The notes: generated by a model not told the origin, from the letters alone. Shown: positions 5,692 to 49,771, counted from the first letter of the stretch. The stretch: DNA of 64,000 nt from an uncultured Holophagales bacterium (GCA_964561935.1 CAZLQX010000005.1:131939-195938), one strand, 5' to 3'. Translations and numbers: made by a program.

Positions 5692-6831
5692 GTGATCGAC
5701 GAGACGCTCACCATGATCCCCGGCCCGACCCCGGTCCACGGCCGGGTCCTCGACGCCCTCGCCCGCCCGACGACGTCGCACGTCGCCCCCTCCTTCGTCG
5801 AACGGTTTCGCGAGGCGCTCTCGGGCTTCCGCTCCCTCTGCCGGAGCGAGAAGGGGCAACCGTTCGTCGTCGCCGGGGGCGGGACGCTCGCGATGGAGAT
5901 CGCCCTCGTGAACGTCGTCGCCCCCGGGGAGAAGCTCCTCGTCGTCTCGCACGGCTACTTCGGCGACCGATTCGGAGACCTCGCGGCGGCCTTCGGGATC
6001 GAGGCCGACGTCCTCAGGGCGGAGTGGGGCCAGGCGATCCCGCCCGCCGAGGTCGAGTCTCGCCTCGAGAGGGGCGGCTACGCGGCCGTCACCGTCACTC
6101 ACGTCGACACGTCCACGGGTACGCGGGCCGCGGCCGCAGAGGTCGCCACCCTCCTCCGCGGCCGGCCCGAGCTCTTCCTCCTCGACGGCGTCTGCGCAAC
6201 GGGAGGCGTCGACGAACGGTTCGACGAGTGGGGCGTCGACGTCCTCCTGACCGGCCCGCAGAAGGCGATCGGCGCCCCTCCCGGCCTCGCGCTCTGCCTC
6301 TTCTCGGAGAGGGCGATGGCCCGGCGAAAGGCGCGCGCCTCGGTCCCGGCCTACTACGCCGACGCCCTGCGCTGGCTCCCCGTCATGGAGTACCCCGGAA
6401 AGTACTTCTCGACCCCGTGCGTGAACGAGATCGTCGCTCTCGCCGAAGCCCTCCGGATCGCGCACGCGGAGGGGCTCGACGCGCGGTTCGCCCGCCACGC
6501 GCGGATCGCCCGGGCCGTCCGCGCCGGCCTCGCGGCGCTCGGCCTCGAGCTCTTCACCGACGCCTCCTGCCGCGCCGACACGCTCTCCGTCGTCCTCCTT
6601 CCGGCCGGCGTCGCGGACGCCGACTTCCGCCGCGAGGTCGCTGCGCGGGGCGTCGTCGTGGCGGGCGGCCTCGGCCCGATCGCCGGGAAGGCCTTCCGGC
6701 TCGGGCACATGGGAAACGTCGGCCCCGCCGAGGTCGCGACGACGCTCACCGCGATCGAGGGGGCCCTCGCCGCCCTGGGCCTCTCGGTTCCGCCAGGCAC
6801 CGCCCTCGCCGCCGCCGCCGCGCAGCTCTGA
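5692..6831 (+). CDS. class V aminotransferase (serine-pyruvate / alanine-glyoxylate aminotransferase family)
   Basis: N-terminus ..LTMIPGPTPV, a Gly-rich PLP region, and the lysine motif TGPQKAIGAPPGL. The GTG start at 5692 is preceded by GGAAGGAG at -7. The long upstream extension to 4624 is an Arg/Ser/Pro-rich artefact. Confidence 0.8.
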   Translation: MIDETLTMIPGPTPVHGRVLDALARPTTSHVAPSFVERFREALSGFRSLCRSEKGQPFVVAGGGTLAMEIALVNVVAPGEKLLVVSHGYFGDRFGDLAAAFGIEADVLRAEWGQAIPPAEVESRLERGGYAAVTVTHVDTSTGTRAAAAEVATLLRGRPELFLLDGVCATGGVDERFDEWGVDVLLTGPQKAIGAPPGLALCLFSERAMARRKARASVPAYYADALRWLPVMEYPGKYFSTPCVNEIVALAEALRIAHAEGLDARFARHARIARAVRAGLAALGLELFTDASCRADTLSVVLLPAGVADADFRREVAARGVVVAGGLGPIAGKAFRLGHMGNVGPAEVATTLTAIEGALAALGLSVPPGTALAAAAAQL

Positions 6832-6902: not shown

Positions 6903-6957
6903 AGAGTGTAGAAAGTAGACCTGACCCCGGGGCCAGGTCTACCTTCTACACTCTGCG
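6903..6957. repeat. REP-like palindromic element, copy 1. Arms are about 23 bp (GAGTGTAGAAAGTAGACCTG ... CAGGTCTACCTTCTACACTC) around a CCCCGGGG core.
   Basis: Near-perfect inverted repeat with one mismatch, read directly in the intergenic region after the aminotransferase gene. A second copy lies at about 13592..13650. Confidence 0.7.
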
Positions 6958-7097
6958 GAGCACCCTTCGGCGCCGTCCTGCGGAGAGGGCTGCGCTCCGG
7001 GATGCGAATCGGGCAGACTCCCGCTGCGACGAAGCGAGGCGAACGAACCGGCCGGGGACCGACCCCGGCTCCGTGCGGAGCACGGGGAGGGCACGCC

Positions 7098-10000
7098 ATG
7101 AGGAACGACCGTCCGACGTCCGCAGCGGAGAACGCCGCCTCCGGCCTCTCGAAGCGCGCCCTCGCGACGCCCGAGCCGTACGTCCGCCTCTTCTCCAGGC
7201 GCGTCCAGCAGGAGGGGGCCCTCGACCTGACCCAGGGCGACTACAAGAACGCCGACTTCGCGCCGCACCCGGAGGTCGTGAGGGCCGCCCAGCGGATCAC
7301 GCGGAACACCGTCCACAGCTACGGGCCCGCCGTCGGGCGGATGGACGTCCGGGGCGAGGTCGCCGACTTCTTCAACCGCGACGGCCTCCTCGACTACCCC
7401 GCCTCGAACGTCCGCTTCCTCCCCGACGAGGTCCTCTTCACGCCGGGGACCCGCTCGGGCCTCGCGATGGTCCTCGAGGTCCTCGGGGCCGACGGCTCGG
7501 GGGTCGTCGTCCCGCGGCCGAGCTGGGAGTACGACTGGTACGTCGAGCGGGCCGGCAAGAAGCTCGTCGAGCTCCCGACGACGCCCCCCGACTTCCTCCC
7601 CGACCCGAAGGAGCTCGACCGGCTCCTCGCGAAAGGGGGGATCTCCTCCGTCATCCTGAACAACCCGCACAACCCGACCGGGCGGGTCTACCCGAGGGAG
7701 CTCGTCGAGGCGATCGTCCGGGTCGCGGTGAAGCACCGCTGCTACGTCCTCTACGACTCGGTCTACCAGCGGCTCGACTACGTCGGCTGGTTCGTGAACC
7801 CCGCCTTCGCCGACCCCGAGTGGCGCGACCGGGTCGTCTCCCTCTCGGGCCTCTCGAAGATGGACATGTTCGGCGCCTCGACCGGCGCGCGCGCCTGCTG
7901 GATGGTGATCTCCGACCAGATCCGCGCGAACGGCATCCGGGCCCGGGAGATCCTCGCGAACCTCTCCGCGTGGCTCGTCGCCACCCCCTCGACGCTCGCG
8001 CAGGACTGGGCCCTCGCCGCGCTTCAGAGCCCGCTCGCGGCGCTCCGCCGCCCCTCGCCCTACATGCGCGAGCGGCGCGACTACATGGTGAGGGCCGCCG
8101 ACGACCTCGCGCCGCTCGGCGTGACGAGGACCGACTTCGGCGGGACGTTCTACGCCCCGCTCGCCTTCCCCGGCCTCGTCGGCGAGCCGTTCGACCGCCT
8201 GAGGAACGGCGTCCGCGAGAGGGCCGTCGTGACGGACTCCGTCGACGCCTTCGAGCTCCTCCTCTCGGGCGGGGTCGGCGGGATCCCGTTCGTCGCCTTC
8301 GCCGGCTCCGACGCCGCGCGCTACGGCACCTGGCAGCGGCTCTCCTACGGCTCGAAGGACGTCAAAGAGCTGACCGTCTTCATCGACCGCGTGAAGGCGC
8401 GGATCGAGGCGCAGGGGAAGCTCGGGTCGAGCGCCCCGGCCGCACAGGTCGCGGCAACGCCGCTCGCCGCCGTCTGGGAGAGCGTCTGCACGGCCGCGGG
8501 CTACGAGGCGCTCGACGATCTCGACCCGAAGGCGTTCGCGAAGGCCCGGGCGGAGTTCCTGAAGGCGCCGCGCCACGAGGAGCTCCGCCTCACCGGGACG
8601 AAGCACCCCGACTCGACGGCCCACCGCGCCGAGCAGCTCGACCGCGCCCTGAGCGCCGTGCCGGCCGGCGCCGACCGCGCGAGGCTCGCGCTCAAGCACC
8701 TCGAGTGGAACCCGCTCGTCGACGCGCGCCTCGAGTACGAGGAGACGGTCGCCGACCTCCTCGGACCGTGCAGCGAGGTGCTCCTCGACTTCGAGGGGCG
8801 CCAGATCAGCCCCGAGTGGCTCGACCTGCCGGAGAAGGTCGTCCTCGCCCTCCTCCGCCACGGCGTCGTCCCGGGCGAGGACCGCCACCTCCTCTTCCGG
8901 GTCCCGAACCCCTTCATCGAGCAGGACGAGGAGAAGATCGTCCGGATCCTCGCCTCGGTCGCGCGCGCGAACGCCCTCTTCCACCTCGCCTGCGAGAAGG
9001 TCGGGGTGCCGCCGTCGCAGAACGCGCTCCCGGAGCTGACCGTCCCGCAGGTGAACTCGGGCGCCGAGATCGGCGCCGTCGTGAAGATCGGGACGCTCTA
9101 CCGCGCCGCGATCGCCTCCCTCTTCGCCGGCGACGCGCACGGCGACGCCTTCCTCCGGGCGCGCGTCCCCGAGGCGCGCCGCGCGGAGATGATCGCGAAG
9201 CTCGAGCGCGTCCGGCTCGTCCCGCTCTGCGAGAACGTCGGCGCGCTCGCGCGCCTCCCCGAGTTCCTCGAGGCGTTCTACGTCGCCCTCGAGAGGGGCC
9301 GCGGTCTCCCCGACGTCCCGACGGCCGCCGTCTTCCGGACGCGCTTCGACCGCGACGAGGCGATCGTCCGCGTCTTCGTCGCCATGTCCGACACCGCCGA
9401 GCAGAGCGGCAAGGTGGCGACGGACGCCGCCGTCACGCTCGCGCTCGCCGGCCGCGAGGAGGCCGAGGGGCGGCTCGCCGCGCTCGCGGCGAAGGCGGGT
9501 GAGCCGGCGCCGCGCGTCACGTTCCTGATCGGCGCCGGGCGGGCCGGCTTCCGCGGCGGCTTCGACCCCGACCACCCGGGGGTGATCCGGCAGTTCGCGC
9601 GCGCCGACGGCGTCACGATGCAGGGGATCCGCGCCGACGACCCGGCCGCCGCCGAGCGCCTCGCCGCCGCCTTCCGCGCCGCCGTCGCCTCCCCCGCGCC
9701 GTCGCCCGCGATGACCGCGGCCGACCGCGACGCGCTCGGCAAGCTCCTCGAGGCGGGCGTGAAGGCCCACACCGAGACGCTCCTCCGAATCGCGCCGCTC
9801 CTCGCTCCGTTCGGCGGCCTCGTGCCGCAGACGCGCGTGCGGATCCGCGCGACGGGCTCCGTGAACTACGGGCGCTCGATCCCGACCTACCCCGAGGAGT
9901 GGGGCGGCGGGACGACGCTCCCCGACAACCGCGACCTGCGCGACGCCTGGCCCGAGGGGGTCACGCTCCCGCGCGCCATCGTCTACAACCTCGGGTCGAC

Positions 10001-10667
10001 GACGCTCGGTCTCCCGGCCGTCACGAGCGACCTCGCCGTCCTCGACCGGCGCGGGGCCGTCCTCCTCGAGCGACACGTCCCCGGCTTCCGCGAGATCGTC
10101 GCCACGGAGCTCCCCGCCTTCGTGAAGGAGGCCGCGGCGCTCGTCTTCGGGAAGAGGCTCGCCGAGACGACCGCGCGGCGGTGCCTGCGCGCCGCGGCGG
10201 CGCTCTGGGTCGACGCGCGGACGCGGGAGGACCTCGTGCTGCCGACCTGCCTCTTCGCGATGGAGTACCTCCGCTGGCTCGCCGAGGACTCGGAGAGCTG
10301 GGACGAGACGAAGGAGCACGAAAGCCGGACGACCCGCGCGGAGGAGCTGATCCGCGAGACCTCGAGCGCCGCCTTCTCTGCGCTCTGCGCCGAGCGCCCG
10401 GGCGACCGCTGGCCGGTCCTCCAGGGGCTCGTCGACGCCGAGGACGCGACGCGCCTCCTCCTCGCGCGCGAGCTGACGCTCGAGGAGAAGAGGGAATTCG
10501 TCGACCTGAGGATCGAGGGGTGGCTCCGCGCGCTCCCCGACGCGCTCACGCGCGAGCTGCGCCGCGAGTGGGCGCGCCTGCGCGAGCTCGGCAAGGACGA
10601 ACTCGAGCTCGACGCGATCGAGCGGCTCGTGGCGCTCGAGAGACTGCGCGGGAGCCGGGGGGCGTAG
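7098..10667 (+). CDS. fusion protein: class I/II PLP aminotransferase (N-terminal, about 430 aa) plus a PEP-carboxylase-like domain (C-terminal, about 750 aa)
   Basis: The N-terminal part has NNPHNPTG and SLSGLSKMDMFGASTGARA (a Lys-containing SxSK-like PLP motif). The C-terminal part has PEPC-like motifs: RVRLVPLCENVGAL (cf. VPLFETIxDL), VFVAMSDTAEQSG (cf. VMxGYSDSxKDxG) and FLIGAGRAGFRGGFDP (cf. FHGRGGxxGRGGxP). The ATG at 7098 has GGGGAGGG 8 nt upstream. The antisense ORF 6939..10319 is rejected. Confidence 0.6.
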   Translation: MRNDRPTSAAENAASGLSKRALATPEPYVRLFSRRVQQEGALDLTQGDYKNADFAPHPEVVRAAQRITRNTVHSYGPAVGRMDVRGEVADFFNRDGLLDYPASNVRFLPDEVLFTPGTRSGLAMVLEVLGADGSGVVVPRPSWEYDWYVERAGKKLVELPTTPPDFLPDPKELDRLLAKGGISSVILNNPHNPTGRVYPRELVEAIVRVAVKHRCYVLYDSVYQRLDYVGWFVNPAFADPEWRDRVVSLSGLSKMDMFGASTGARACWMVISDQIRANGIRAREILANLSAWLVATPSTLAQDWALAALQSPLAALRRPSPYMRERRDYMVRAADDLAPLGVTRTDFGGTFYAPLAFPGLVGEPFDRLRNGVRERAVVTDSVDAFELLLSGGVGGIPFVAFAGSDAARYGTWQRLSYGSKDVKELTVFIDRVKARIEAQGKLGSSAPAAQVAATPLAAVWESVCTAAGYEALDDLDPKAFAKARAEFLKAPRHEELRLTGTKHPDSTAHRAEQLDRALSAVPAGADRARLALKHLEWNPLVDARLEYEETVADLLGPCSEVLLDFEGRQISPEWLDLPEKVVLALLRHGVVPGEDRHLLFRVPNPFIEQDEEKIVRILASVARANALFHLACEKVGVPPSQNALPELTVPQVNSGAEIGAVVKIGTLYRAAIASLFAGDAHGDAFLRARVPEARRAEMIAKLERVRLVPLCENVGALARLPEFLEAFYVALERGRGLPDVPTAAVFRTRFDRDEAIVRVFVAMSDTAEQSGKVATDAAVTLALAGREEAEGRLAALAAKAGEPAPRVTFLIGAGRAGFRGGFDPDHPGVIRQFARADGVTMQGIRADDPAAAERLAAAFRAAVASPAPSPAMTAADRDALGKLLEAGVKAHTETLLRIAPLLAPFGGLVPQTRVRIRATGSVNYGRSIPTYPEEWGGGTTLPDNRDLRDAWPEGVTLPRAIVYNLGSTTLGLPAVTSDLAVLDRRGAVLLERHVPGFREIVATELPAFVKEAAALVFGKRLAETTARRCLRAAAALWVDARTREDLVLPTCLFAMEYLRWLAEDSESWDETKEHESRTTRAEELIRETSSAAFSALCAERPGDRWPVLQGLVDAEDATRLLLARELTLEEKREFVDLRIEGWLRALPDALTRELRREWARLRELGKDELELDAIERLVALERLRGSRGA

Positions 10668-13591: not shown

Positions 13592-13650
13592 TCGGGTCAG
13601 GTCGACCTTCTACACGCTACGCTCCCGCAGAGTGTAGAAAGCAGACCTGA
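13592..13650. repeat. REP-like palindromic element, copy 2 (CAGGTCGACCTTCTACAC ... GTGTAGAAAGCAGACCTG)
   Basis: Same arm sequence as the element at 6903..6957, with the arms in swapped order around a different 12-nt core. It is intergenic, downstream of both convergent flanking genes. Confidence 0.65.
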
Positions 13651-13699: not shown

Positions 13700-15223
13700 T
13701 CAGCCGAGCGGGCCGACCTCCTTCTCGACCTCCTCGAGGACGCGGCAGGAGCGGACGAGCTCCTTCATCCGGGTGTGGTCCGGGTAGAGGGGCCGGTCGA
13801 CGTCGAGGTGGTCGACGACGGTCCTCACGACGCGGCGGGCGGTCGCGACGCCGCGGCCGTTCGCGAAGTCGCGGAAGTCGAGCGCCTGCGCGGCGGCCAT
13901 CATCTCGATCCCGAGGATCCCGTACGCGTTGTCGAGGATCTGCCCGTTCTTGATCGCCGTGTTCATCCCCATCGAGACGAAGTCCTCCTGGTCGGCCGCG
14001 GCGGGGATCGACTGGATCGACGCGGGGACGGAGAGGATCCGCTGCTCGACGACGAGGGTGTCGGCCGTGTACTGGGAGAGCATGAGGCCCGAGAACATCC
14101 CGGCGCCCTTCGTCAGGAACGCGGGGAGGCCGACGGAGAGCGCCGGGTGGTTGAGCCGGTTCAGGCGCCGCTCCGAGAGGACGGAGACCATCGTCACCGC
14201 CGCGCCGACCATGTCCATCGGGAGGGAGACGGGCGTCCCCTGGAAGTTCGCGCCGGTGAGCGTGAGCCGCTCCTCGGGAAGGAAGATCGGGTTGTCGCCG
14301 ACGCCGTTCAGCTCCGTCTCGACCTGGGCGCGCGCGAAGGCGACCGCGTCGTGCGCGGCGCCGATGACCTGCGGCGTCGAGCGCATCGAGTAGGCGTCCT
14401 GGACCTTCGTCTTCAGCTTCCCGGTCCTCAGGTCGCTCCCCTCGACGCACTTCAGGATCGCCTTCGACGAGCGGATCGCGCCCGCGAAGCCGCGGAGCTG
14501 GTGGAGCCGCACGTCGTATGGCTTGAAGTTCGCGAAGAGCGCCTCGAGCGACATCGCGCAGGCGATTTCCGCCTGCCTCAGCCACCGGTCGATGTCGAAG
14601 AGGTGGATCGCGCTCATCGCCGTGAGGAGGTTCGAGCCGTTGATCGTCGCGAGGCCGTCGCGCGCCATGAGGCCCGGGACCGGGATCCCCGCCTTCTCCA
14701 TGGCGACCTTCCCGGGGAGCCTCTCGCCCCGGTACGTCGCCTCCCCCTCGCCGAGGAGGAGGAGCGCGATCTGCGACATCGGGGCGAGGTCGCCGCAGGC
14801 GCCGACGGAGCCCTTCTGGCAGACGACGGGCGTCACGCCCCGGTTCAGCATCTCGACGAGCGTCTGCGTGATCACGGGACGGCAGCCCGAGTTGCCGTGC
14901 GCGTGGACGTTGATCCGTCCCGCCATCGCGCCGCGGACGTACTCCTCGGGCGCCGGGTCGCCGATTCCGGCCGCGTGGTTGTAGATGAGGTAGCGCTGGA
15001 AGTCCTTCACCTGCTCGTCGGTCAGGACGACCTCGGAGAACTCGCCGATCCCCGTGTTGACGCCGTACATGATCTCGTGGGCGTCGATCTTCTCCTCGAG
15101 GACGGCGCGGCACGCGCGGATCCGCTCCAGGGCCTCGGGCGCGAGCTCGACCTTCTCGCCGTGGCGCGCGACGCGGACGAGGTCCGGGACCGTGAGCGAC
15201 GAACCGTTCAGGACGATGGCCAT
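13700..15223 (-). CDS. aromatic amino acid ammonia-lyase/aminomutase (HAL/PAL/TAL, MIO-dependent family)
   Basis: Full-length HAL-family pattern: MAIVLNGSSLTV..., then GSVGACGDLAPM at the MIO-forming tripeptide position (Ala-Cys-Gly rather than Ala-Ser-Gly), ...NPIFLPE... and QEDFVSMG. The antisense ORF 13775..15280 is rejected. Confidence 0.85.
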   Translation of the reverse strand: MAIVLNGSSLTVPDLVRVARHGEKVELAPEALERIRACRAVLEEKIDAHEIMYGVNTGIGEFSEVVLTDEQVKDFQRYLIYNHAAGIGDPAPEEYVRGAMAGRINVHAHGNSGCRPVITQTLVEMLNRGVTPVVCQKGSVGACGDLAPMSQIALLLLGEGEATYRGERLPGKVAMEKAGIPVPGLMARDGLATINGSNLLTAMSAIHLFDIDRWLRQAEIACAMSLEALFANFKPYDVRLHQLRGFAGAIRSSKAILKCVEGSDLRTGKLKTKVQDAYSMRSTPQVIGAAHDAVAFARAQVETELNGVGDNPIFLPEERLTLTGANFQGTPVSLPMDMVGAAVTMVSVLSERRLNRLNHPALSVGLPAFLTKGAGMFSGLMLSQYTADTLVVEQRILSVPASIQSIPAAADQEDFVSMGMNTAIKNGQILDNAYGILGIEMMAAAQALDFRDFANGRGVATARRVVRTVVDHLDVDRPLYPDHTRMKELVRSCRVLEEVEKEVGPLG

Positions 15224-15380
15224 GCTTCGGCTCCCCTCGCGCCGGCGGGCTCTCGGCCGCCGGGCCATCGGGCATTATGAGGCGCGTCGGAGAAGCCGAC
15301 CGATTCCGGCCCGCCCCGTGCCGGGATGCCGCCGGGTCTCGGAGCGCGCCCCCGACCGCGTCCCGTAGACTCCGCCCTTC

Positions 15381-16202
15381 ATGCCGGCCCTCGCCTGGAT
15401 CCTCGCCCGGACCCCGCTGCCGATCGCCGCGCTCTTCGCCGCCTCCCTTGCCTGGCTCTGGTGGACCGTCGTCCCGGTGAGAAAGCGCCTCGCGGTGAGG
15501 AACCTGCGCGCCTCGCTTCCCGACGCGGAGGCCGGACCCGTCCTCCGCCGGATGATGGCGGGCCTCGTCCTCGGCTACTTCGAGCTCCTTCGCGAGCTGC
15601 GCCTCCCCGGGTCGGTGGACCTCGCGCTCGAGGGCGCCGAGCCTGTCGCCGAGCGGTCGCGCCGCGGGGAGGGAACGCTTCTCCTCGCGGGGCACCTCGG
15701 CTCCTGGGACCTCCTCGGACCGATGGTCGCCAGGCGACTGGGGATCCCGGCCACGGTCGTCGTGAAGGTCCCCCGTTCGAAGGGGGTCGCGGCGCTCATG
15801 GAGAGGGTCCGGACCGGGTTCGGCCTCGGGCTGCTGCCGAACCGCCGCGGCGCGATGCCGCGCGTCTACGAGCTCCTCGCCGAGGGGCAGCTCGTCGCCT
15901 TCGTCCTCGACCAGAAGCTCGCCCGCGGGATCGCCGTCCCGTTCTTCGGCCGCCCCGCGCTGACGGCCCCGTCCCTCGCCGCCGCGGCCGCGCGCTCCGG
16001 CCTTCCCGTCTACTTCCTCGAGTACTGGCGAGAGGGGACGGCGCGCCACGGCGCGCGCGTCACGGGGCCGCTCCCGACGACCGGCCGGTCCGAGGAGGAC
16101 ACGGCCTCCTTCACCGCCTGCCTCGAGGAGGCGATCCGCCGCCGGCCGCACAGCTGGCTCTGGCTCCACGACCGATGGAAGGGGGCCCCCGCCCCCACGT
16201 GA
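15381..16202 (+). CDS. lysophospholipid/lipid A acyltransferase (LpxL/HtrB family)
   Basis: N-terminal TM helix, then ..LLLAGHLGSWDLLG.. (the HX4D-type acyltransferase box region) and the ..FVLDQKLARGIAVPFFGRPA motif, typical of the LpxL/LpxM/lysophospholipid acyltransferase family. Confidence 0.75.
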   Translation: MPALAWILARTPLPIAALFAASLAWLWWTVVPVRKRLAVRNLRASLPDAEAGPVLRRMMAGLVLGYFELLRELRLPGSVDLALEGAEPVAERSRRGEGTLLLAGHLGSWDLLGPMVARRLGIPATVVVKVPRSKGVAALMERVRTGFGLGLLPNRRGAMPRVYELLAEGQLVAFVLDQKLARGIAVPFFGRPALTAPSLAAAAARSGLPVYFLEYWREGTARHGARVTGPLPTTGRSEEDTASFTACLEEAIRRRPHSWLWLHDRWKGAPAPT

Positions 16203-16256
16203 CGGCGGCGCGAGGCGCCCGCGGGGAGGGCCGCACACGTCCCGCCGGCCGGCGTC

Positions 16257-17090
16257 TCAGCGCGCGGCGCGGAGCGGGGCGAAGGGGCGGGCGCTCCGGT
16301 AGCCGGAGAACTCGAAGCGGATCTCGCGCCGGAACGGGAGGAGCATCCCCGCGGTCGCGGTGATCCCGATCTCCTCGCGGCACGGCGCCCAGACCCCGGG
16401 GAGCACCTCGCGCGTCTCGTAGAGGAGCCGGACCCCCTTCAGGTCGAGGAGCGCGCCGCCGAGGACCTTGACCGGAGCGGTCAGCCGCCCGTCGATCTTC
16501 CTCACCTGGATCTCGGCGACGTCGATCCAGGCCTTCCCCGCGAAGGCGTTCAGGACGCGGTCGCGGACCGTCTTCGACGCGAGGCCCGGCTTCGGCCGGA
16601 ACTCGACGACGAACGTCGGCCTCCCGTCGAGCCGCTCCTCGCCGAGGAGGCGGAAGTCGAGGCGATGGTAGAGGTCGAGGAGCGGGACCCGGCCCGACAT
16701 CAGCTCCTCCTCGTCCGAACGCCGGTCGTCCGGGTCCGTCGAGGCGAGCTTGCGCTTCCGGTCGTCGCGGCGGGCGCCCTCGCGCTCCGCCTCCGTCGCG
16801 GGGCGACCGTCGACCTCGAGGAGCTCCCTCTCGACGACGCCCCGCCGGTCCATGAGGACGAGGAAGCGCTTCCGCTCGGAGCCCTTTCGACGCCCCTTCG
16901 CGTCGAGCTCCGTCTCGACCTCGACCCGCTCGAGGACGATCCTCCCGGCGGTCGCCTCCCCCTCCCGCTGGCGCGCCGCCGCCTCGAGGACGAGGGCGTC
17001 GACGTCCCAGGCGCGGGCCGGCGCCGCGCCGAGGACGGAAGCGAGGGCGGAGGCGAGGAGGGCCGCACGGCCCGCCGGCGCGCGCTTCAC
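16257..17090 (-). CDS. secreted LolA-like (outer-membrane lipoprotein carrier-like) protein
   Basis: Signal peptide MKRAPAGRAALLASALASVLGAAPARA, followed by a beta-rich about 250 aa domain of LolA/LppX size. Its position next to the acyltransferase is typical of aryl-polyene-type loci. Confidence 0.45.
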   Translation of the reverse strand: MKRAPAGRAALLASALASVLGAAPARAWDVDALVLEAAARQREGEATAGRIVLERVEVETELDAKGRRKGSERKRFLVLMDRRGVVERELLEVDGRPATEAEREGARRDDRKRKLASTDPDDRRSDEEELMSGRVPLLDLYHRLDFRLLGEERLDGRPTFVVEFRPKPGLASKTVRDRVLNAFAGKAWIDVAEIQVRKIDGRLTAPVKVLGGALLDLKGVRLLYETREVLPGVWAPCREEIGITATAGMLLPFRREIRFEFSGYRSARPFAPLRAAR

Positions 17091-17103
17091 GGGCCGCCCC
17101 CGG

Positions 17104-18738
17104 TCATCCGTGCGCCGGGGCCGCGACCTCCGCCGCCCCGGCAGGACGCGGCGGCAGGACCGGCTGCGGCCCGCCGATCGGCCGCGGCTTCACGACGTAC
17201 GTCCACGCGTTCGCGAGCTCCGCCTTCGCCCAGCGGACGAGGCCGTGCCCGAGCATGACGTACGCCGCGCTCCGAAGCGAGAATCCGACGAGCTTCGGGC
17301 AGCGGCCCGCGTTGTGGTTCCCGTAGATCCCGAGCGCCTTCTTGCGCTTCGCGATCGAGATGAGGCGGCGCTGGTAGAAGCGCATCGGGACGAGGCCGAG
17401 CTTCGCGCCGTCCTGGTAGTAGGGCGGGACGCCGAGCCGGTCGGCCGACCAAGTGTAGACGGGCTGGACGGCGACCATGTAGTAGAGCGCCGTGTCCATC
17501 AGGAACGACGTCGTCATCGTGTCGTAGTCGCCCATCAGGTGGTACTTGTCGCGGTAAATCGCCTCGTAGAAGTAGGTCAGGAACTGGAGAAAGCGCTCGT
17601 TGTGATGCGCGTACTCCTTCTCCATCTCCGCGGCCGGCGCGCCGTTCAGGGCCTTCACGACCAGGTCCGTCCGCATGTGAACGCCGAAGCTCATCGCGTC
17701 GAGGCCGGGCGAGTAGAACGGGTCGAGGAAGCCGCCCGCGTCGCCGACGCAGGTCCAGCCGTGGTCGATGAACAGATCGAGGAAGTACGGGAGCGTCCCG
17801 AGGTAGCGGCAGTCCCCCTCGACGGGGGTCGCGTGCTCGAGCATCTCGCGCGTGAGCGGGTTGCCGGAGAGGACGCTCGTCAGCCTCTCGAGGGGCGTCT
17901 TCCCCTCGGGCTGGAGGAGCCGGTTGTCCCAGACGAGGCCGACGCTCGTCTCCCCGCCGCGGAGCGGGATGAACCAGATCCAGTACCCCCAGCCGACGAA
18001 GTGGTTCGTCGCGAGACGGCGGGAGGCGATGACCCGCCGCGCGAACGGGTCGGCCGGGTCGGTCCCGACGACCTCCTTGCCGTCGAGGTCCTTCACGCCG
18101 CGGTAGCGGACCCAGATGGACGACGTCGGGTGCCCCTCGACGGGGCGGATGCCGCCCCGCTTCCGCGCGAGCGTCGCCGCGCGGCCGCTCGCGTCGACGA
18201 CCCACTTCGCGCGGACGGTCACTCGCGTGCCGTCGGCCTTCTCGACCGTCACGGAGTTGCCCGCCGGGCCCTCGAGCGTGAAGTCGACGACCTTCGCGGG
18301 GCGCCAGACCTCGGAGCCTTCCTCGGCGGCGAGCTTCAGGACGTGCTCGTCGAGGACGGCGCGGTCCATCTGGAAGCCCGGCGTCCGGGCGAGCTGGGTC
18401 GCGCCGACCTCGGAGGCCTCCCTCAGGCAGGTCACCTTCTCGTTGTGGAACCAGTAGCGAAAGGCCTGCTTGGCGAGGTGCTCCCGGCTCAGGTGGTCCA
18501 TGAGCTTCAGGACGCGCGTCAGAAAGTAGGCCGAGATCTCGACCGTCGACTCGCCGACCTTCCAGTCGAACTTCTCCGCCTTCTCGACGACGAGGACGCG
18601 GGTGCCGGGCCGGCGGCGCCGGAGGAGGATGGCGGTCGAGGCGCCCGCGAGGGCGCCGCCGATGACGACGACGTCGTAGGGTGCAGGTGCAGCGTCCGAG
18701 GCCGGTCCCGCGGCGGGGACCTCTTCCTTCCCGTTCAT
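17104..18738 (-). CDS. flavin-dependent halogenase-family FAD oxidoreductase
   Basis: YDVVVIGGALAGASTAILL (GxGxxG FAD fold) and GWGYWIWFIPL (the WxWxIP motif diagnostic of flavin-dependent halogenases). Start taken at MNGKEEVP, because the upstream ORF extension is Arg/Gly-rich. Confidence 0.75.
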   Translation of the reverse strand: MNGKEEVPAAGPASDAAPAPYDVVVIGGALAGASTAILLRRRRPGTRVLVVEKAEKFDWKVGESTVEISAYFLTRVLKLMDHLSREHLAKQAFRYWFHNEKVTCLREASEVGATQLARTPGFQMDRAVLDEHVLKLAAEEGSEVWRPAKVVDFTLEGPAGNSVTVEKADGTRVTVRAKWVVDASGRAATLARKRGGIRPVEGHPTSSIWVRYRGVKDLDGKEVVGTDPADPFARRVIASRRLATNHFVGWGYWIWFIPLRGGETSVGLVWDNRLLQPEGKTPLERLTSVLSGNPLTREMLEHATPVEGDCRYLGTLPYFLDLFIDHGWTCVGDAGGFLDPFYSPGLDAMSFGVHMRTDLVVKALNGAPAAEMEKEYAHHNERFLQFLTYFYEAIYRDKYHLMGDYDTMTTSFLMDTALYYMVAVQPVYTWSADRLGVPPYYQDGAKLGLVPMRFYQRRLISIAKRKKALGIYGNHNAGRCPKLVGFSLRSAAYVMLGHGLVRWAKAELANAWTYVVKPRPIGGPQPVLPPRPAGAAEVAAPAHG

Positions 18739-18904
18739 GGCGCGGATGATATGGGAAGCCTCGTCGGCCCCCGGTCCTTCCCCGCGTCCCGGCCGGACCG
18801 CGGAATCGATCGTCCGACCGGGGCGCGCGGGCGGCGGGCCTCGGATCTCCCGGCGGCCGGGACGGCGAAGGAAACACGGACCGGACCGATCCGTATCCTT
18901 CTCC

Positions 18905-20164
18905 ATGGCTCAGGCTTCGTCGACTCCCGTCTCGTTCGCCCCTCCGCGGCCGGCCCGGCGAGCCGGACGCCTCTTGCCGCTCGTCCTCGCGCTCGCCGGT
19001 CTCACCTTCCCGGCAACCGCCGCGCCGCAGTCGGCCCCGGCGCCGTCCCCCGGCCCGAAGACGTCGATCGGGCACGCAGGGTGGAGCGGCGCCCGGTGGT
19101 TCGAGCGCGGCCTCGAGCTCCACGAGGAAGGAGAGTGGGACGCGGCGATCGAGGCCTTCTCGAGGGCGATCGAGAAGGGCTACCGGGAGGAGGTCGCTTC
19201 CTTCAACATCGCGTGCGGCCACGCCCGAAAGGGGGACAAGGAGCGCGCCTTCGAGTGGCTCGGAAAGGCCGAGGCCTCCGGCTTTCGCGTCTCCTCGAAC
19301 CTCGACGACGGCGACCTCGACTCCCTCCGCTCCGACCCCCGCTTCACCCGGCTCAAGACGAAGGCGCGCCAGGCGCGCGCCGCGCGGGACGGCGAGGAGG
19401 TGAGGAAGGCGGTCTCCCGCTTCGACCTCCTGATGGGTCGGTCGCCCCGGAACGGACGCGCCCTCTACGACGTCGGGCGGGACCTCCTCGCGGCCGGGGA
19501 GTACGACCGGGCCGCGCGGGCCTTCGTCGCCGCCGCCGAGGCCGGCCGGCGCGAGGGAACCGCCCTCTACAACGCCGCCTGCGCCCGCGCCCTCGAGGGC
19601 GGGAAGGAGGAGGCGCTCGACCTCCTCGGGCGCGCCGTCGAGTCCGGGTACGACGGCCCCGGCCACATGCGGGGCGACGACGACCTCGACGCGCTCCGGG
19701 CCGAGCCGCGCTTCGCGCGGATCCTGAAGGACGCCGAGGCGCTCTCCCTCGACGGCTTCCCGAGCCTCGGCGCCCGGCTCCTCCGATCGCAGATGAAGGC
19801 GGAGGCGGACGAGGCGGCCTCCCGCTTCCGGCGCTACCTGAAGGACCACCCGCGAAGCGGACGGGCCTTCTCGAACCTCGGCACCGTCCACCTCGCGGCC
19901 GAGGAGGACCGCGAGGCGGCGCTCGCGTTCGCGAAAGCGCTCGAGCTCGGCTACCGGCGCCCCGCGACGACCTACAACCTCGCCTGCGCCCATGCGCGGC
20001 TGAAGGAGCGCGACGCCGCCTTCGCCCGCCTCGACGAGGCGATCGCGCTCGGCGCCGTCAGCGCCGACCACCTCGAGGAGGACGACGACCTCTGGAACCT
20101 GAGGCGCGACCCGCGGTTCGAGAAGGCCGTCGAGAGGGCGCGGAAGACCGGCAGGGACCGCTGA
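18905..20164 (+). CDS. secreted TPR-repeat protein
   Basis: Signal peptide (MAQASS...LLPLVLALAGLTFPATAAPQ) followed by at least 6 copies of about 34-aa repeats with the pattern A..A..G..E.A...L..A.E.G. Confidence 0.65.
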   Translation: MAQASSTPVSFAPPRPARRAGRLLPLVLALAGLTFPATAAPQSAPAPSPGPKTSIGHAGWSGARWFERGLELHEEGEWDAAIEAFSRAIEKGYREEVASFNIACGHARKGDKERAFEWLGKAEASGFRVSSNLDDGDLDSLRSDPRFTRLKTKARQARAARDGEEVRKAVSRFDLLMGRSPRNGRALYDVGRDLLAAGEYDRAARAFVAAAEAGRREGTALYNAACARALEGGKEEALDLLGRAVESGYDGPGHMRGDDDLDALRAEPRFARILKDAEALSLDGFPSLGARLLRSQMKAEADEAASRFRRYLKDHPRSGRAFSNLGTVHLAAEEDREAALAFAKALELGYRRPATTYNLACAHARLKERDAAFARLDEAIALGAVSADHLEEDDDLWNLRRDPRFEKAVERARKTGRDR

Positions 20165-24299: not shown

Positions 24300-24380
24300 C
24301 CGCCCCGGAACGCTCCGGCGGCCCGCCCGGCCGCGGCGCCGCCTATACTCGGCCCACCTGTCGTCGAGGAGGTCCCGCCC

Positions 24381-25733
24381 ATGTCGAAGCCGTTCTCCTT
24401 CGGTGCGTTCGACGTCCGTCTCGAGGCCGGAGCCGAGCCCCGCCCCGCCCGCGCGGAGGACGACGCTCCCTTCCGGATCCTCGTCGCCGGGGACTTCTCG
24501 GGCCGGGCGGCTCGCGGACTCCTCGAGACCGGCGCCGCCCTCGGCGAGAGGAAGGCCTTCCGCGTCGACCTCGACTCCCTCGACGCGACGATCGCGCGCC
24601 TCGAGCCCGTCGTCCGCCTCCGCGACGGCGAGGTCCTCCGGTTCCGGGAGCTCGACGACTTCACGCCCGACGCCCTCTTCGCACGCATCCCCCGCTTCGG
24701 CGCCCTGAAGGAGGCGGGCGAGGCGCAGGCACGGCACCGTGCCGCGCGGCGACCCGCGACGGTCGACCTCCTCGACCGGATCCTGGACGGCACGCCGCAG
24801 GAGGAGGCGCCGCTCGACGACGCGGGCCCGGACCGCGTGACGGAGCTGATGCGGGAGATGCTCGGCGCCGCCGCCTTCAAGGCCCTCGAGGCGAGCTGGA
24901 GGGGCGTCGACTTCCTCCTCCGCCGCCTCGACGTCGACGGACCCCTCACTCTCCACCTCGTCGACCTCTCCCCGGAGGAGCTCCGCGCCGACCTCCTCGC
25001 CTCCGAGGAGCTCGGGAAAACGGGTCTTCACCGCCTCCTCGTCGAGAAGACGGTCGGGACACCGGGCGGCCACCCGTGGGCCGCGCTCGTCGTCCTCGGC
25101 TCGTTCGGGCCGGAGCGACGGGAGGCCGAGGCCCTCGGCCGCCTCGCGCGGATCGCCGCGCAGGCGGGGACCGCCGTCCTCGCCGGCGCCGAGCCCGGCA
25201 TCCTCGGCTGCGTCTCGCTCGCCGAGACGCCCGACCCGGACGACTGGACGGCCCCCGAGAGCGAAGGGGCCGAGGCGTGGGCCGCGCTCCGCCGGCTTCC
25301 CGAGGCCCGATTCTGCGGCCTCGCCCTCCCCCGCGTCCTCCTCCGCCTCCCGTACGGGAAGGAGGCGACCGCCGTCGAGGCGTTCGGCTTCGAGGAGCTC
25401 TCGACGCCGCCCTCTCACGAGGAGTACCTCTGGGGATGCCCCGCGCTCGCGACGGCGCTCCTCCTCGGCGAGGCCTTCCTCGAGGACGGCTGGGGCCTCC
25501 GCCCCGGCTCCGCGCAGGAGATCTCCGGCCTGCCGTTCGCCCTCGTCTCCGAGGACGGCGAGAAGCGGGCCGTGCCGTGCGCCGAGACGCTCTTCACCGT
25601 CCGCGCGGCTCAGGCCGTGACGGAGCGCGGGTTGATGCCGCTCCTCACGATGAAGGGGACCGACACCGTCCGCCTCGCGATCTTCCAGTCGATCGCGGAC
25701 CCGCACGGCGACCTCGCCGGCCTCTGGGGCTGA
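24381..25733 (+). CDS. single-chain TssB-TssC-like contractile-sheath paralog (VipA-like N-terminus fused to a C-terminally truncated VipB-like body)
   Basis: The N-terminus (FDVRLEAGAE...PFRILVAGDFSG) parallels the canonical TssB in this window (ITYDVEIGGAIE...LPFVVGVIGDFSG). The central and C-terminal parts align with the canonical TssC here: ALEASWRGVDFLL vs RLEASWRGLHHLV, LPRVLLRLPYG vs MPRTLMRLPYG, and HEEYLWGCPALA vs HDKYLWGNAAYS. The alignment stops about 70 aa before the TssC C-terminus. Confidence 0.6.
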   Translation: MSKPFSFGAFDVRLEAGAEPRPARAEDDAPFRILVAGDFSGRAARGLLETGAALGERKAFRVDLDSLDATIARLEPVVRLRDGEVLRFRELDDFTPDALFARIPRFGALKEAGEAQARHRAARRPATVDLLDRILDGTPQEEAPLDDAGPDRVTELMREMLGAAAFKALEASWRGVDFLLRRLDVDGPLTLHLVDLSPEELRADLLASEELGKTGLHRLLVEKTVGTPGGHPWAALVVLGSFGPERREAEALGRLARIAAQAGTAVLAGAEPGILGCVSLAETPDPDDWTAPESEGAEAWAALRRLPEARFCGLALPRVLLRLPYGKEATAVEAFGFEELSTPPSHEEYLWGCPALATALLLGEAFLEDGWGLRPGSAQEISGLPFALVSEDGEKRAVPCAETLFTVRAAQAVTERGLMPLLTMKGTDTVRLAIFQSIADPHGDLAGLWG

Positions 25734-27826: not shown

Positions 27827-28196
27827 GCGCGCCCGGGCGGCTTCCCGCCCCGTCCTCCGCGAAGGGGTCCTCGACGTCGCCCCCGAGGTAGGCGTCGCGG
27901 ACGGCGACGATCCGCTCGTGCGGGCCGCGCCGCCGGTCCTCGAGGTGCTCCCGCGCCCACCGTCCCTCCTCGCCCCGCTCGAACCCCTCGCCGAGATCCA
28001 GCGAGAGGTCGTAGTAGATCGTCGCGTCCCGCTCCGAGGTCAGTCCCCACTCCCGGGCCGAGGCCGCGATCCGAAGCGCCTCCGCGCGGAGCTCCGCGTC
28101 GCGGCGCCCCGCGGCCCGCTCCGGGTAGAGACGGGCGCCGCGCGAGGCGAGCCGCTCGGCGAGCGCCTCCCGGCGCTCCGCCCGGAACGCTTCCAT
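27816..28196 (-). CDS. hypothetical protein (126 aa) between the adaptor and the effector
   Basis: Internal Met of ORF 27816..28475 (MEAFRAERREALAERL...). The upstream part of that ORF overlaps the DUF4123 gene in another frame and is rejected. Confidence 0.4.
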   Translation of the reverse strand: MEAFRAERREALAERLASRGARLYPERAAGRRDAELRAEALRIAASAREWGLTSERDATIYYDLSLDLGEGFERGEEGRWAREHLEDRRRGPHERIVAVRDAYLGGDVEDPFAEDGAGSRPGARGR

Positions 28197-31529: not shown

Positions 31530-31741
31530 CCCACACCCCCGCACCGGACGAAAGATCCGGGTCGCACGGGCCGGTGCTCCCGACGGGCCATTCTCGCTCC
31601 GGGGAGGGCGTCGGGTACACCCTTTCGCGAGCGGCGGCGAGGGACGCGGCGGGAGGGGGCGGCCCCACGGGCGACGGCCGGCCTCCCCGGGGTCGGGCGC
31701 TGCCCCCGGGAGAGACGGCTTCGGGCTATTCTCGGCGTCCG

Positions 31742-36092: not shown

Positions 36093-36121
36093 TTCGTCGT
36101 CCTCTCGCGCGCCGTCTTTCC

Positions 36122-41023: not shown

Positions 41024-41024
41024 C

Positions 41025-49764: not shown

Positions 49765-49771
49765 GGCGGCC

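What the first reader, a model, noticed from the sequence alone, without database searches (positions are those of the whole stretch)
7098..10667. Aminotransferase fused to a PEP-carboxylase-like domain (possible PEP to oxaloacetate to aspartate channeling enzyme)
A single 1189-aa ORF joins a class I aminotransferase (NNPHNPTG, SxSK-type lysine) to a C-terminal region carrying three PEPC-like signature blocks (VPLCEN, AMSDTAEQSG and GRAGFRGG in order). I do not know this architecture as a described enzyme. If functional it could carboxylate PEP and transaminate the product in one protein. It sits next to serine dehydratase and a serine-pyruvate aminotransferase, suggesting a serine/C3-C4 amino-acid node.
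Basis: seen in the sequence. Interest (0 to 1): 0.7.

Follow-up and report, generated by a model that had tools for sequence, protein, structure and literature searches.

The report
Natural aminotransferase–PEP carboxylase fusion enzyme
One 1189-residue protein really does join an intact aspartate-aminotransferase-like domain to an intact archaeal-type PEP carboxylase domain; it probably makes aspartate from PEP, bicarbonate and an amino donor, it occurs only in uncultured bacteria of at least seven phyla, and I found no study of it.

Summary
Window 7098-10667 (+) is one uninterrupted coding frame, with third-codon-position GC of 0.96-1.00 throughout. Pfam finds Aminotran_1_2 (E 4e-31) and PEPcase_2 (E 7e-28).

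The fusion is not an artefact. The same 1190-residue architecture occurs in 132 species-level genomes, all of them MAGs: Acidobacteriota, Gammaproteobacteria, Chloroflexota, Myxococcota, Actinomycetes, Eisenbacteria and Methylomirabilota. Identity to the window protein is 62-95%.

Both domains look catalytically complete:
- **Aminotransferase domain:** closest solved structure is Thermus AspAT. It keeps the Schiff-base Lys254, the PLP ligands, the alpha-carboxylate Arg414, and Arg119 where subgroup-Ib AspATs carry the distal-carboxylate Lys.
- **PEPC domain:** it aligns end to end with archaeal-type PEPCs and keeps the catalytic His503, metal ligands Glu712 and Asp765, and loop Arg819. Its model matches PDB 3ODM at TM 0.76-0.79.

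Both domains are under purifying selection, while the linker drifts.

The best reading is a self-contained PEPC-AspAT enzyme (PEP to oxaloacetate to aspartate). This is inferred, not assayed. Channelling is untested. I found no literature on it. It is a new variant of known kinds.

The parts
7086..7090 (+). Shine-Dalgarno-like GGAGG, 7 nt upstream of the ATG at 7098
   Evidence: Read directly from the sequence.
7098..10667 (+). Complete fusion gene: 1189 aa plus a stop codon.
   Evidence: One continuous frame with third-position GC of 0.96-1.00. Translation. Two Pfam domains. Full-length homologues at 62-95% identity.
7170..8417 (+). Class I (fold-type I) aminotransferase domain, aa 25-440, AspAT subgroup-Ib-like. 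Key residues: Tyr75, Arg119, Trp143, Asn192, Asp220, Tyr223, Lys254 (Schiff base; codon 7857-7859), Arg265 and Arg414 (alpha-carboxylate).
   Evidence: Pfam Aminotran_1_2, E 4e-31. Best solved structures are Thermus thermophilus AspAT 1BKG/1BJW, E 1.5e-27, with a residue-by-residue alignment. Key residues are invariant in 79-80 of 80 sequences, and mean pairwise identity is 84%. dN/dS is about 0.04-0.27.
8418..8582 (+). Inter-domain linker, aa 441-495. It is Ala/Pro-rich at its start.
   Evidence: Least conserved segment: 50% mean identity, 18% minimum. dN/dS is about 0.3-1.0.
8583..10664 (+). Archaeal-type PEP carboxylase-like domain, aa 496-1189. Motifs and key residues:
- TKHPD, aa 501-505 (His503; codon 8604-8606)
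- DFEG, aa 564-567
- Arg601
- VPLCEN (Glu712; codon 9231-9233)
- AMSDTA (Asp765; codon 9390-9392)
- GAGRAGFRGG (Arg819; codon 9552-9554)
- PQTRVR (Arg913 and Arg915)
- Arg926
- LPRAI (Arg959)
- C-terminal LRGSRGA
   Evidence: Pfam PEPcase_2, E 7.3e-28. End-to-end alignment with 8 canonical atPEPCs, with 31-37 invariant columns. hhalign to E. coli Ppc pairs Glu712 with E506, Asp765 with D543 and Arg819 with R587. The AlphaFold model (pLDDT 84.9) matches 3ODM at TM 0.76-0.79. Of 65 columns invariant in canonical atPEPCs, 41 are retained.
10203..10547 (+). Family-specific helical insertion in the PEPC domain, aa 1036-1150. Canonical atPEPCs lack it; it is partly shared with the 'long-form' PEPcase_2 proteins P0162 and P0169.
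   Evidence: Alignment A1, columns about 1520-1660. 78% mean identity within the family. Predicted helical, with low confidence at aa 1070-1112.

Best explanation
The gene encodes a self-contained bifunctional enzyme.

1. The C-terminal archaeal-type PEPC domain carboxylates phosphoenolpyruvate with bicarbonate to give oxaloacetate and phosphate. This would use the usual metal-bound enolate and carboxyphosphate chemistry.
2. The N-terminal PLP-dependent domain, which resembles subgroup-Ib aspartate aminotransferases, transaminates that oxaloacetate to L-aspartate. Glutamate is the likely amino donor.

Fusing the two would couple an irreversible carboxylation to a freely reversible transamination. 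It would also keep unstable, low-abundance oxaloacetate local. Aspartate aminotransferases are dimers and archaeal-type PEPCs are tetramers, so a tetramer carrying two aminotransferase dimers is geometrically plausible.

**Shown here:** the fusion is real; both folds and families; all catalytic and cofactor residues are intact; both halves are under purifying selection; the gene works without fixed neighbours.

**Inferred:** the two activities, the substrates (oxaloacetate, aspartate, glutamate), the oligomeric state, and any channelling.
For: 1. **One real frame.** It is continuous, and the same architecture occurs in more than 120 proteins and 132 genomes.
2. **PEPC half, profiles and fold.** PF14010 scores above its gathering cutoff. 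PDB 3ODM is the only significant PDB sequence hit, and it is the top fold hit for the confident C-domain model at TM 0.76-0.79, followed only by PEPCs.
3. **PEPC half, residues.** The alignment with canonical atPEPCs runs from the N-terminal T-x-H-P-D motif to the C-terminal R-G-S-x-G motif. Invariant in it are His503, Glu546, Glu560, Asp564, Glu566, Arg601, Glu712, Arg758, Ser764-Asp765, Phe818-Arg819-Gly820, Gln842, Asp847, Arg913, Arg915, Arg926 and Arg959.
4. **Mapping to E. coli Ppc.** Profile-profile alignment pairs Glu712, Asp765 and Arg819 with E506, D543 (the Mn2+ ligands) and R587 (the Gly-rich loop Arg). The roles of those E. coli residues come from my own knowledge of the Kai/Izui/Matsumura structures.
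5. **Aminotransferase half.** The best solved relatives are Thermus, Phormidium and Thermotoga AspATs and prephenate aminotransferases. The alignment to ttAspAT pairs Trp143/W125, Asn192/N175, Asp220/D203, Tyr223/Y206, Lys254/K234 and Arg265/R242. Arg119 pairs with K101. The QRLSYG motif supplies the alpha-carboxylate Arg414. From my recollection of Nobe 1998 and Nakai 1999, K101 is the Lys that binds the distal carboxylate of Asp and Glu in subgroup Ib.
6. **Conservation.** All these residues are invariant in 79-80 of 80 sequences from at least 7 phyla. The aminotransferase domain is the most conserved part (84% identity), and the linker is the least (50%). dN/dS is about 0.04-0.27 for the aminotransferase domain, 0.09-0.56 for PEPC and about 0.3-1.0 for the linker.
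7. **No conserved partner genes.** Flanks differ in nearly every lineage, as expected for an enzyme that needs only common metabolites.
Against: - No activity data exist for any member; all carriers found are uncultured MAGs.
- The PEPC half is divergent. It shares 21-25% identity with canonical atPEPCs in the alignment. It scores 90 bits on TIGR02751, below the 146-bit equivalog cutoff.
- 24 of the 65 columns invariant in canonical atPEPCs are changed. One change is the loss of an invariant Gly...Arg (the 'GTGR' motif), and there are two insertions.
- Its nearest relatives are uncharacterised 'long-form' PEPcase_2 proteins.
- The aminotransferase half is only about 25-30% identical to AspATs. 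It scores far below every NCBIfam equivalog cutoff, and its nominal best hit is GntC. Substrate specificity is therefore not established.
- Arg replaces Lys at the distal-carboxylate position.
- I could not test whether the host genomes lack a separate PEPC or AspAT.
Confidence: 0.6

Rival explanations
1. Both domains are catalytic, but the chemistry is not plain PEP to oxaloacetate to aspartate. Two possibilities:
- The divergent PEPC-like domain uses another electrophile or another phosphoenol substrate. For example, sulfite in place of bicarbonate would give sulfino- or sulfopyruvate.
- The aminotransferase acts on another keto acid, so the product is a different amino acid such as cysteate or cysteine sulfinate.
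For: - The PEPC half fails the TIGR02751 equivalog cutoff.
- It differs from canonical atPEPCs at 24 of 65 invariant columns.
- It groups with uncharacterised long forms. One of these, P0169, lies beside a ComB-family 2-phosphosulfolactate phosphatase gene (Pfam 2-ph_phosp) in a methanogen-like cluster of coenzyme genes.
- The aminotransferase half is far from every curated AspAT model.
- From my own knowledge, AspAT-type enzymes are known to accept cysteate and cysteine sulfinate.
Against: - Every residue tied to bicarbonate and PEP chemistry that I could map is retained: His503, Glu712, Asp765, Arg819 and the Arg cluster.
- Arg119 and Arg414 fit a dicarboxylate substrate.
- No sulfur-metabolism genes accompany the fusion in any of the loci examined.
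- The ComB adjacency concerns a relative that is only 30% identical, and it may be coincidental.
Confidence: 0.2
2. The protein is a PEP carboxylase in which the aminotransferase-like domain is a PLP-dependent amino-acid sensor. It would sense aspartate or glutamate, as in MocR/GabR-type proteins, and regulate the carboxylase rather than turn over oxaloacetate.
For: - PEPCs are classically controlled by aspartate, and archaeal-type PEPCs lack the bacterial allosteric site (review PMC8100219).
- Sensor domains of the MocR type also keep the PLP lysine, so residue conservation alone does not prove turnover.
- The aminotransferase domain is unusually conserved at 84% identity, which could reflect inter-domain contacts.
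Against: The full catalytic set is retained, including both substrate-carboxylate arginines, and dN/dS is very low. A complete, intact aminotransferase placed directly after the enzyme that makes its keto-acid substrate is explained more simply by catalysis.
Confidence: 0.12
3. The fusion is an assembly or sequencing artefact that joined two adjacent genes: a frameshift, a lost stop codon, or a chimeric contig.
For: Two database 'representatives' of the family (P0186 and P0131) are visibly frameshifted assemblies. Errors therefore do occur in this gene in public data.
Against: - The frame is continuous, with third-position GC of 0.96-1.00.
- The identical architecture and length (1180-1238 aa) occur in more than 120 independent protein clusters and 132 genomes. 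These come from many projects and sequencing technologies, on contigs up to 3.7 Mb.
- A conserved linker region is present in all members.
Confidence: 0.01

Closest known systems
Archaeal-type PEP carboxylase (atPEPC/PepcA; Pfam PF14010, TIGR02751; structure 3ODM from Clostridium perfringens)
   Same: - Same fold: TM 0.76-0.79.
- Colinear from the T-x-H-P-D motif to the C-terminal R-G-S-x-G motif.
- All mapped catalytic residues are retained: the His, the metal-binding Glu and Asp, and the Arg residues.
- 41 of 65 atPEPC-invariant columns are retained.
   Different: - Only 21-25% identity.
- Scores below the TIGR02751 equivalog cutoff.
- Motif changes: Lys for Gln in TQHPD, PQ for PM, AGFRGG for LPFRGH, and loss of the invariant 'GTGR' Arg.
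- Two insertions, at aa 506-540 and aa 1036-1150.
- Fused behind a 440-residue aminotransferase, whereas known atPEPCs are stand-alone subunits of 55-60 kDa (PMC8100219).
Subgroup Ib aspartate aminotransferases (Thermus thermophilus AspAT 1BJW/1BKG) and the related prephenate aminotransferases (Arabidopsis 5WMH, Rhizobium 6F77)
   Same: - Best solved-structure matches, E 1.5e-27.
- Same PLP-binding constellation: Trp, Asn, Asp, Tyr, Lys and Arg.
- Same alpha-carboxylate Arg.
- A basic residue at the position that binds the distal carboxylate.
   Different: - About 25-30% identity, with several insertions. Examples are 3 residues after the catalytic Lys, 7 residues at about aa 275-282, and about 25 residues at aa 355-380.
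- Arg instead of Lys at the distal-carboxylate position.
- Far below the NCBIfam AspAT cutoffs.
- Covalently linked to a PEPC.
Sequential but unfused PEPC and AspAT, as in the first two steps of aspartate-forming C4 photosynthesis and in bacterial anaplerosis
   Same: The same two reactions in the same order: PEP plus HCO3- gives oxaloacetate, which gives aspartate.
   Different: In those systems the two enzymes are separate proteins, and the PEPC is of the unrelated-in-sequence bacterial/plant type (PF00311). Here a single polypeptide carries an archaeal-type PEPC. No natural fusion is mentioned in the review of the PEP-pyruvate-oxaloacetate node or in my searches.
'Long-form' PEPcase_2 proteins without an aminotransferase: P0162 (905 aa), P0169 (930 aa, methanogen-like contig) and P0223 (1037 aa, Candidatus Micrarchaeota)
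   Same: - Nearest non-family relatives of the PEPC half, at 30-33% identity.
- They share its derived features: GTKHPD, the insertion after it, PQ(I/V)N, loss of 'GTGR', and a C-terminal insertion.
   Different: They have no aminotransferase domain, they carry other large insertions, and P0169 and P0223 come from archaea-like or AT-rich sources. Their function is unknown.

Membership tests
Archaeal-type PEP carboxylase (PF14010 / TIGR02751) | Significant match to the Pfam PEPcase_2 profile, above its gathering score | tested here: met
   97.8 bits against a cutoff of 25, E 7.3e-28, aa 546-1006.
Archaeal-type PEP carboxylase (PF14010 / TIGR02751) | Score above the curated equivalog cutoff of TIGR02751 (same function as characterised atPEPCs) | tested here: not met
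   90.3 bits against a cutoff of 146.05. Canonical atPEPCs score 360-427 bits on PF14010, against 98-110 bits for the fusion family.
Archaeal-type PEP carboxylase (PF14010 / TIGR02751) | Catalytic and metal-binding residues shared by all PEPCs: the His of T-x-H-P, the Glu of P-L-x-E, the Asp of S-D, the Arg of the F/G-R-G-G loop, and the C-terminal Arg cluster | tested here: met
   His503, Glu712, Asp765, Arg819, Arg913, Arg915, Arg926 and Arg959 are invariant with 8 canonical atPEPCs and in 80 of 80 family members. Glu712, Asp765 and Arg819 align to E. coli E506, D543 and R587.
Archaeal-type PEP carboxylase (PF14010 / TIGR02751) | PEPC three-dimensional fold | tested here: met
   The AlphaFold C-domain model (pLDDT 84.9, pTM 0.88) matches 3ODM at E 1e-20 and TM 0.76-0.79. 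The next hits are all plant or E. coli PEPCs.
Archaeal-type PEP carboxylase (PF14010 / TIGR02751) | Stand-alone subunit of 55-60 kDa forming a homotetramer | tested here: not met
   The domain is about 690 aa with two insertions, and it is fused to a 440-aa aminotransferase. The oligomeric state cannot be tested here.
Archaeal-type PEP carboxylase (PF14010 / TIGR02751) | Bicarbonate-dependent conversion of PEP to oxaloacetate | not testable with these tools
   Needs an enzyme assay.
Aspartate aminotransferase, class I, subgroup Ib | Class I/II aminotransferase fold-type I profile match | tested here: met
   PF00155 scores 109 bits against a cutoff of 19.7.
Aspartate aminotransferase, class I, subgroup Ib | PLP-binding set: Schiff-base Lys, ring-N Asp, stacking Trp, O3' Asn and Tyr, phosphate Arg and Tyr* | tested here: met
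   Lys254, Asp220, Trp143, Asn192, Tyr223, Arg265 and Tyr75 align to ttAspAT K234, D203, W125, N175, Y206, R242 and the Tyr of K-Y-A-P. They are conserved in 79-80 of 80 sequences.
Aspartate aminotransferase, class I, subgroup Ib | Dicarboxylate recognition: an alpha-carboxylate Arg plus a distal-carboxylate Lys (K101 in ttAspAT's own numbering, 'Lys109' in pig numbering) | tested here: inconclusive
   Arg414 (QRLSYG) matches the 'RLSY' Arg of ttAspAT as I recall that sequence; the alignment stops at query residue 355. Position 119 is Arg rather than Lys. It is still basic, and it is invariant in the family. The role of this position is recalled from the literature, not tested here.
Aspartate aminotransferase, class I, subgroup Ib | Score above a curated AspAT equivalog cutoff | tested here: not met
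   Best AspAT models score 61-78 bits against cutoffs of 550-617. The nominal top hit, GntC, scores 111 bits against a cutoff of 415.
Aspartate aminotransferase, class I, subgroup Ib | Asp plus 2-oxoglutarate <-> oxaloacetate plus Glu activity | not testable with these tools
   Needs an enzyme assay.

The most novel reading that the evidence does not exclude
The protein is not merely two housekeeping enzymes tethered together. It is a new kind of PEP-dependent amino-acid synthase.

In this reading its divergent 'long-form' PEPC-like domain has changed its electrophile or substrate, for example from bicarbonate to sulfite. Its unusually conserved aminotransferase domain then receives the labile keto acid through a dedicated inter-domain path.

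The result would be a one-protein route from PEP to a specific amino acid, such as aspartate made with obligate channelling, or a sulfonated or sulfinated analogue. This route would have spread by horizontal transfer through uncultured soil and water bacteria.
Probability: 0.12. Interest if true: 0.85.

Novelty: new variant of a known kind. Interest (0 to 1): 0.6.

Why it matters
If the prediction holds, this would be, as far as I could find, the first natural single-polypeptide link between anaplerotic CO2 fixation and amino-acid formation. One enzyme would turn PEP, bicarbonate and an amino donor into aspartate.

- **A test case for channelling.** Whether unstable oxaloacetate is channelled in vivo is a long-argued question. 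This protein would give a natural case to test it.
- **A fifth PEPC form.** It would add to the four PEPC types currently recognised (PMC8100219).
- **A unit for engineering.** It would be a compact, transferable part for engineering aspartate-family or C4-type pathways.
- **An evolutionary puzzle.** The protein is 67-95% identical to the window protein in the 80 best of the 132 carrier genomes, which span at least seven phyla, and all 80 are MAGs. This points to recent horizontal spread, strong constraint, or both, and to a blind spot in metabolic models of Acidobacteriota, Steroidobacteraceae-like Gammaproteobacteria, Chloroflexota and Myxococcota. Automatic annotation currently calls the gene either 'PEPC' or 'aminotransferase'.

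Tried and rejected
- **Frameshift or chimera:** rejected by the codon-position GC profile and by the many independent full-length homologues.
- **Functional operon with serine dehydratase, the class-V aminotransferase, DUF5924 or AHSA1:** rejected. tblastn of the window's neighbours against 86 loci found them only in the 1-11 closest loci. Five neighbourhood look-ups showed unrelated flanks.
- **Biosynthetic-cluster or defence context:** nothing recurrent appears around the gene.
- **More divergent fusion members (P0186 and P0131, at 39-52%):** these turned out to be frameshifted assemblies of the same family.
- **Plasmid carriage:** no hit in PLSDB.
- **Full-length AlphaFold model:** poor (pLDDT 59, aminotransferase half below 50). 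It says nothing about domain packing or a tunnel.
- **Regulatory RNA upstream:** Rfam gave only a spurious sub-threshold miRNA hit on the palindrome. Promoter and terminator scans found nothing.
- **Rosetta-stone test:** I looked for atPEPC next to AspAT genes in other genomes, using two look-ups. No adjacency was found.
- **Literature:** seven full-text searches aimed at the fusion found no description of it. Two further searches for residue-role sources also found nothing. The atPEPC structure paper (PMC3092815) and the discovery paper (PMC524890) are not held. The assigned roles of the E. coli and Thermus residues therefore rest on my own knowledge.

Full report
**1. The observation**

The window is very GC-rich, about 75%, so long spurious ORFs abound. 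I therefore judged coding by codon-position GC. From about 7100 to 10667, one + frame has third-position GC of 0.96-1.00 without interruption. That frame is the ORF starting at the ATG at 7098, which follows a GGAGG at 7086-7090. It encodes 1189 residues.

Pfam finds exactly two families. Aminotran_1_2 covers aa 42-335 (E 4e-31). PEPcase_2, the archaeal-type PEP carboxylase family, covers aa 546-1006 (E 7.3e-28). Both score far above their gathering cutoffs.

**2. The fusion is natural and widespread**

A search of 5.8 billion proteins returned more than 120 full-length proteins of 1162-1238 aa, at 79-95% identity, all with the same two Pfam domains. Their automatic names are 'phosphoenolpyruvate carboxylase' or 'aspartate/methionine/tyrosine aminotransferase/phosphoenolpyruvate carboxylase'.

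I then ran an exhaustive HMMER scan of the C-terminal 719 residues against 1.84 billion cluster representatives. It found only 111 hits:
- The fusion family collapses into essentially one 50%-identity cluster, plus one 62%-identical full-length member (P0121).
- Most other hits are fragments of the same family.
- Canonical atPEPCs appear only at E 1e-8 to 1e-4 and 28-33% identity.
- Two apparent 'divergent' members are frameshifted assemblies of the same gene.

In one genome per species (GTDB), 132 genomes carry the gene. The best 80 are all metagenome-assembled genomes. They come from:
- Acidobacteriota (Holophagales, Thermoanaerobaculia, Vicinamibacteria)
- Gammaproteobacteria (Steroidobacteraceae, Nevskiaceae, Lysobacterales, Acidithiobacillales)
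- Chloroflexota
- Myxococcota
- Actinomycetes
- Eisenbacteria
- Methylomirabilota

Identity in these 80 is 67-95%, on contigs up to 3.7 Mb.

A neighbour-joining tree shows mostly phylum-coherent clades. However, the gammaproteobacterial clade nests inside the acidobacterial clades, and several sequences are misplaced. In the lower-GC hosts the gene is 5-8 points more GC-rich than its flanks. Together this indicates several inter-phylum transfers followed by vertical inheritance. No plasmid copy was found. The window itself groups with the Holophagales/Thermoanaerobaculia MAGs.

**3. The PEPC half**

Aligned with eight canonical atPEPCs and two 'long' PEPcase_2 proteins, the C-terminal domain is colinear from the N-terminal T-x-H-P-D motif (TKHPD, aa 501-505) to the C-terminal R-G-S-x-G motif. 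In bacterial and plant PEPCs the first motif corresponds to the catalytic-His motif TAHPTE; that correspondence rests on motif resemblance and my own knowledge.

The invariant columns include His503, Glu546, Glu560, Asp564, Glu566, Arg601, Glu712, Arg758, Ser764-Asp765, Phe818-Arg819-Gly820, Gln842, Asp847, Arg913, Arg915, Arg926 and Arg959.

A profile-profile alignment to E. coli Ppc pairs three motifs:
- VPLCEN with APLFET (E506)
- AMSDTA with GYSDSA (D543)
- FRGG with GRGG (R587)

From my own knowledge, these are the two Mn2+ ligands and the catalytic loop arginine.

An AlphaFold model of the domain is confident (pLDDT 84.9, pTM 0.88). Its best structural match is the only solved atPEPC, 3ODM, at TM 0.76-0.79. 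Only PEPCs follow.

The domain is nevertheless a divergent sub-lineage:
- It scores 90 bits on TIGR02751, below the 146-bit cutoff.
- It keeps 41 of the 65 columns that are invariant in canonical atPEPCs and changes 24. One change is the loss of an invariant 'GTGR' arginine.
- It has insertions at aa 506-540 and aa 1036-1150.

Many of these derived states are shared with the long-form proteins P0162, P0169 and P0223. P0223 comes from Candidatus Micrarchaeota, and P0169 from a methanogen-like contig.

**4. The aminotransferase half**

The best solved relatives are Thermus thermophilus AspAT (E 1.5e-27), other subgroup-Ib AspATs, and prephenate aminotransferases. The printed alignment lets residues be read off directly:
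- Trp143 pairs with W125
- Asn192 with N175
- Asp220 with D203
- Tyr223 with Y206
- Lys254 with K234
- Arg265 with R242
- Arg119 with K101

From my recollection of Nobe 1998 and Nakai 1999, not verified here, K101 is the lysine that binds the distal carboxylate of aspartate and glutamate in subgroup Ib. The QRLSYG motif matches the '-RLSY-' alpha-carboxylate arginine as I recall the ttAspAT sequence; the alignment stops before it. Substrate specificity is not proven, because all NCBIfam AspAT models score far below their cutoffs.

**5. Both halves are under selection**

Across 80 sequences, every residue listed above is conserved in 79-80 cases. Mean pairwise identity by region is:
- 84% for the aminotransferase domain, the highest
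- 73-77% for the PEPC domain
- 78% for the C-terminal insertion
- 50% for the linker

Pairwise dN/dS is about 0.04-0.27 for the aminotransferase domain, 0.09-0.56 for PEPC and 0.3-1.0 for the linker. dS is compressed by the extreme third-position GC bias, so these ratios are rough. Neither domain is decaying.

**6. Context**

The window shows this gene order: L-serine ammonia-lyase (-), class-V aminotransferase (+), fusion (+), DUF5924 (+), AHSA1 (+). The class-V aminotransferase, DUF5924 and AHSA1 recur only in the 5-11 most closely related loci, and the serine dehydratase in only one. Elsewhere the flanks are unrelated. The gene therefore acts on its own, and the 'serine node' idea rests on lineage-specific synteny.

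**7. Interpretation**

The simplest mechanism is a bifunctional PEPC-AspAT. The PEPC domain irreversibly carboxylates PEP. The aminotransferase domain then converts the labile oxaloacetate to aspartate, with glutamate as the probable donor. I put this at about 0.6.

The rivals are:
- Altered chemistry or substrates in one or both halves (0.2).
- A sensor role for the aminotransferase-like domain (0.12).
- An artefact (0.01 or less).

Channelling is a hypothesis only. The full-length model was too poor to show how the domains pack.

**8. Novelty**

The review of the PEP-pyruvate-oxaloacetate node recognises four PEPC types, all unfused. A 2012 study of HGT in PF14010 mentions no fusion. Seven full-text searches aimed at the fusion found nothing on this architecture. 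The sequences are in public databases under automatic names, so the architecture is recorded but, as far as I can tell, undescribed and uncharacterised.

I rate it a new variant of known kinds, with interest about 0.6. It is a clear, testable and ecologically widespread enzyme fusion. It is built from two well-understood chemistries.

Noticed in passing
window 6903-6954 and 13598-13649: A near-perfect palindrome with 21-bp arms (AGAGTGTAGAAAGTAGACCTG, 10 nt, then its complement). It is AT-richer than its surroundings. It occurs twice: once in the gap upstream of the fusion gene, and once just 3' of the aromatic-amino-acid-lyase gene. Four arm matches were found against 0 expected. It looks like a REP-like extragenic repeat or a hairpin terminator. 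Rfam gave only a spurious sub-threshold miRNA hit on it.
   Followed up: partly
window about 24300-57000: A complete type VI secretion cluster. It contains TssB/C sheath genes (two VipB-type genes, at 24300-25733 and 39527-41098), VgrG (29169-31832), ClpV (33441-36125), TssG, TssA/ImpA, ImpE, TssM/IcmF-like (45487-49839), TssK/VasE and an FHA protein. An anthrax-lethal-factor-like (ATLF) domain protein at 26744-28039 could be an effector.
   Followed up: no
L088 2820-5612 (protein P0169); also L089: P0169 is a 930-aa 'long-form' PEPcase_2 protein and the nearest non-fusion relative of the PEPC half. It sits in a methanogen-like cluster of coenzyme genes: an MfnA-like decarboxylase, MJ0043_C, a ComB-family 2-phosphosulfolactate phosphatase gene (Pfam 2-ph_phosp), Fae and CofE. 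Its function is unknown. Its position beside a coenzyme-M gene that acts on a PEP-plus-sulfite product is suggestive.
   Followed up: no
L090-L092 5001-6620 (protein P0226): A canonical 539-aa archaeal-type PEPC is wedged directly between purK and purE, the bicarbonate-dependent carboxylation steps of purine synthesis. This arrangement recurs in three independent bacterial contigs.
   Followed up: no
proteins P0186 and P0131: Two 50%-identity cluster 'representatives' are frameshifted assemblies of the fusion gene. Blocks at about 90-100% identity alternate with out-of-frame sequence. They inflate the apparent diversity of the family.
   Followed up: yes
window 5692-6831 (+): The upstream class-V aminotransferase scores best on the BhcA model (L-aspartate-glyoxylate aminotransferase): 241 bits, far below the 650-bit cutoff. 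An aspartate-consuming aminotransferase next to a putative aspartate-forming enzyme would be neat. However, the adjacency is limited to close relatives.
   Followed up: partly
window 13700-18906: An aromatic-amino-acid ammonia-lyase at 13700-15268 scores just under the HutH cutoffs, with weaker hits to the Tyr ammonia-lyase and aminomutase models. It lies near a lipid-A-type acyltransferase (15381-16202) and an FAD-dependent halogenase-like protein (17104-18906). This could be a small specialised-metabolite locus.
   Followed up: no
fusion protein around aa 975-982 (window about 10020-10045): The 'G-T-G-R' motif is invariant in the eight canonical atPEPCs examined. It is deleted or replaced in the fusion family and in the long-form PEPcase_2 proteins. 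I could not assign its role, because the atPEPC structure paper is not held.
   Followed up: partly
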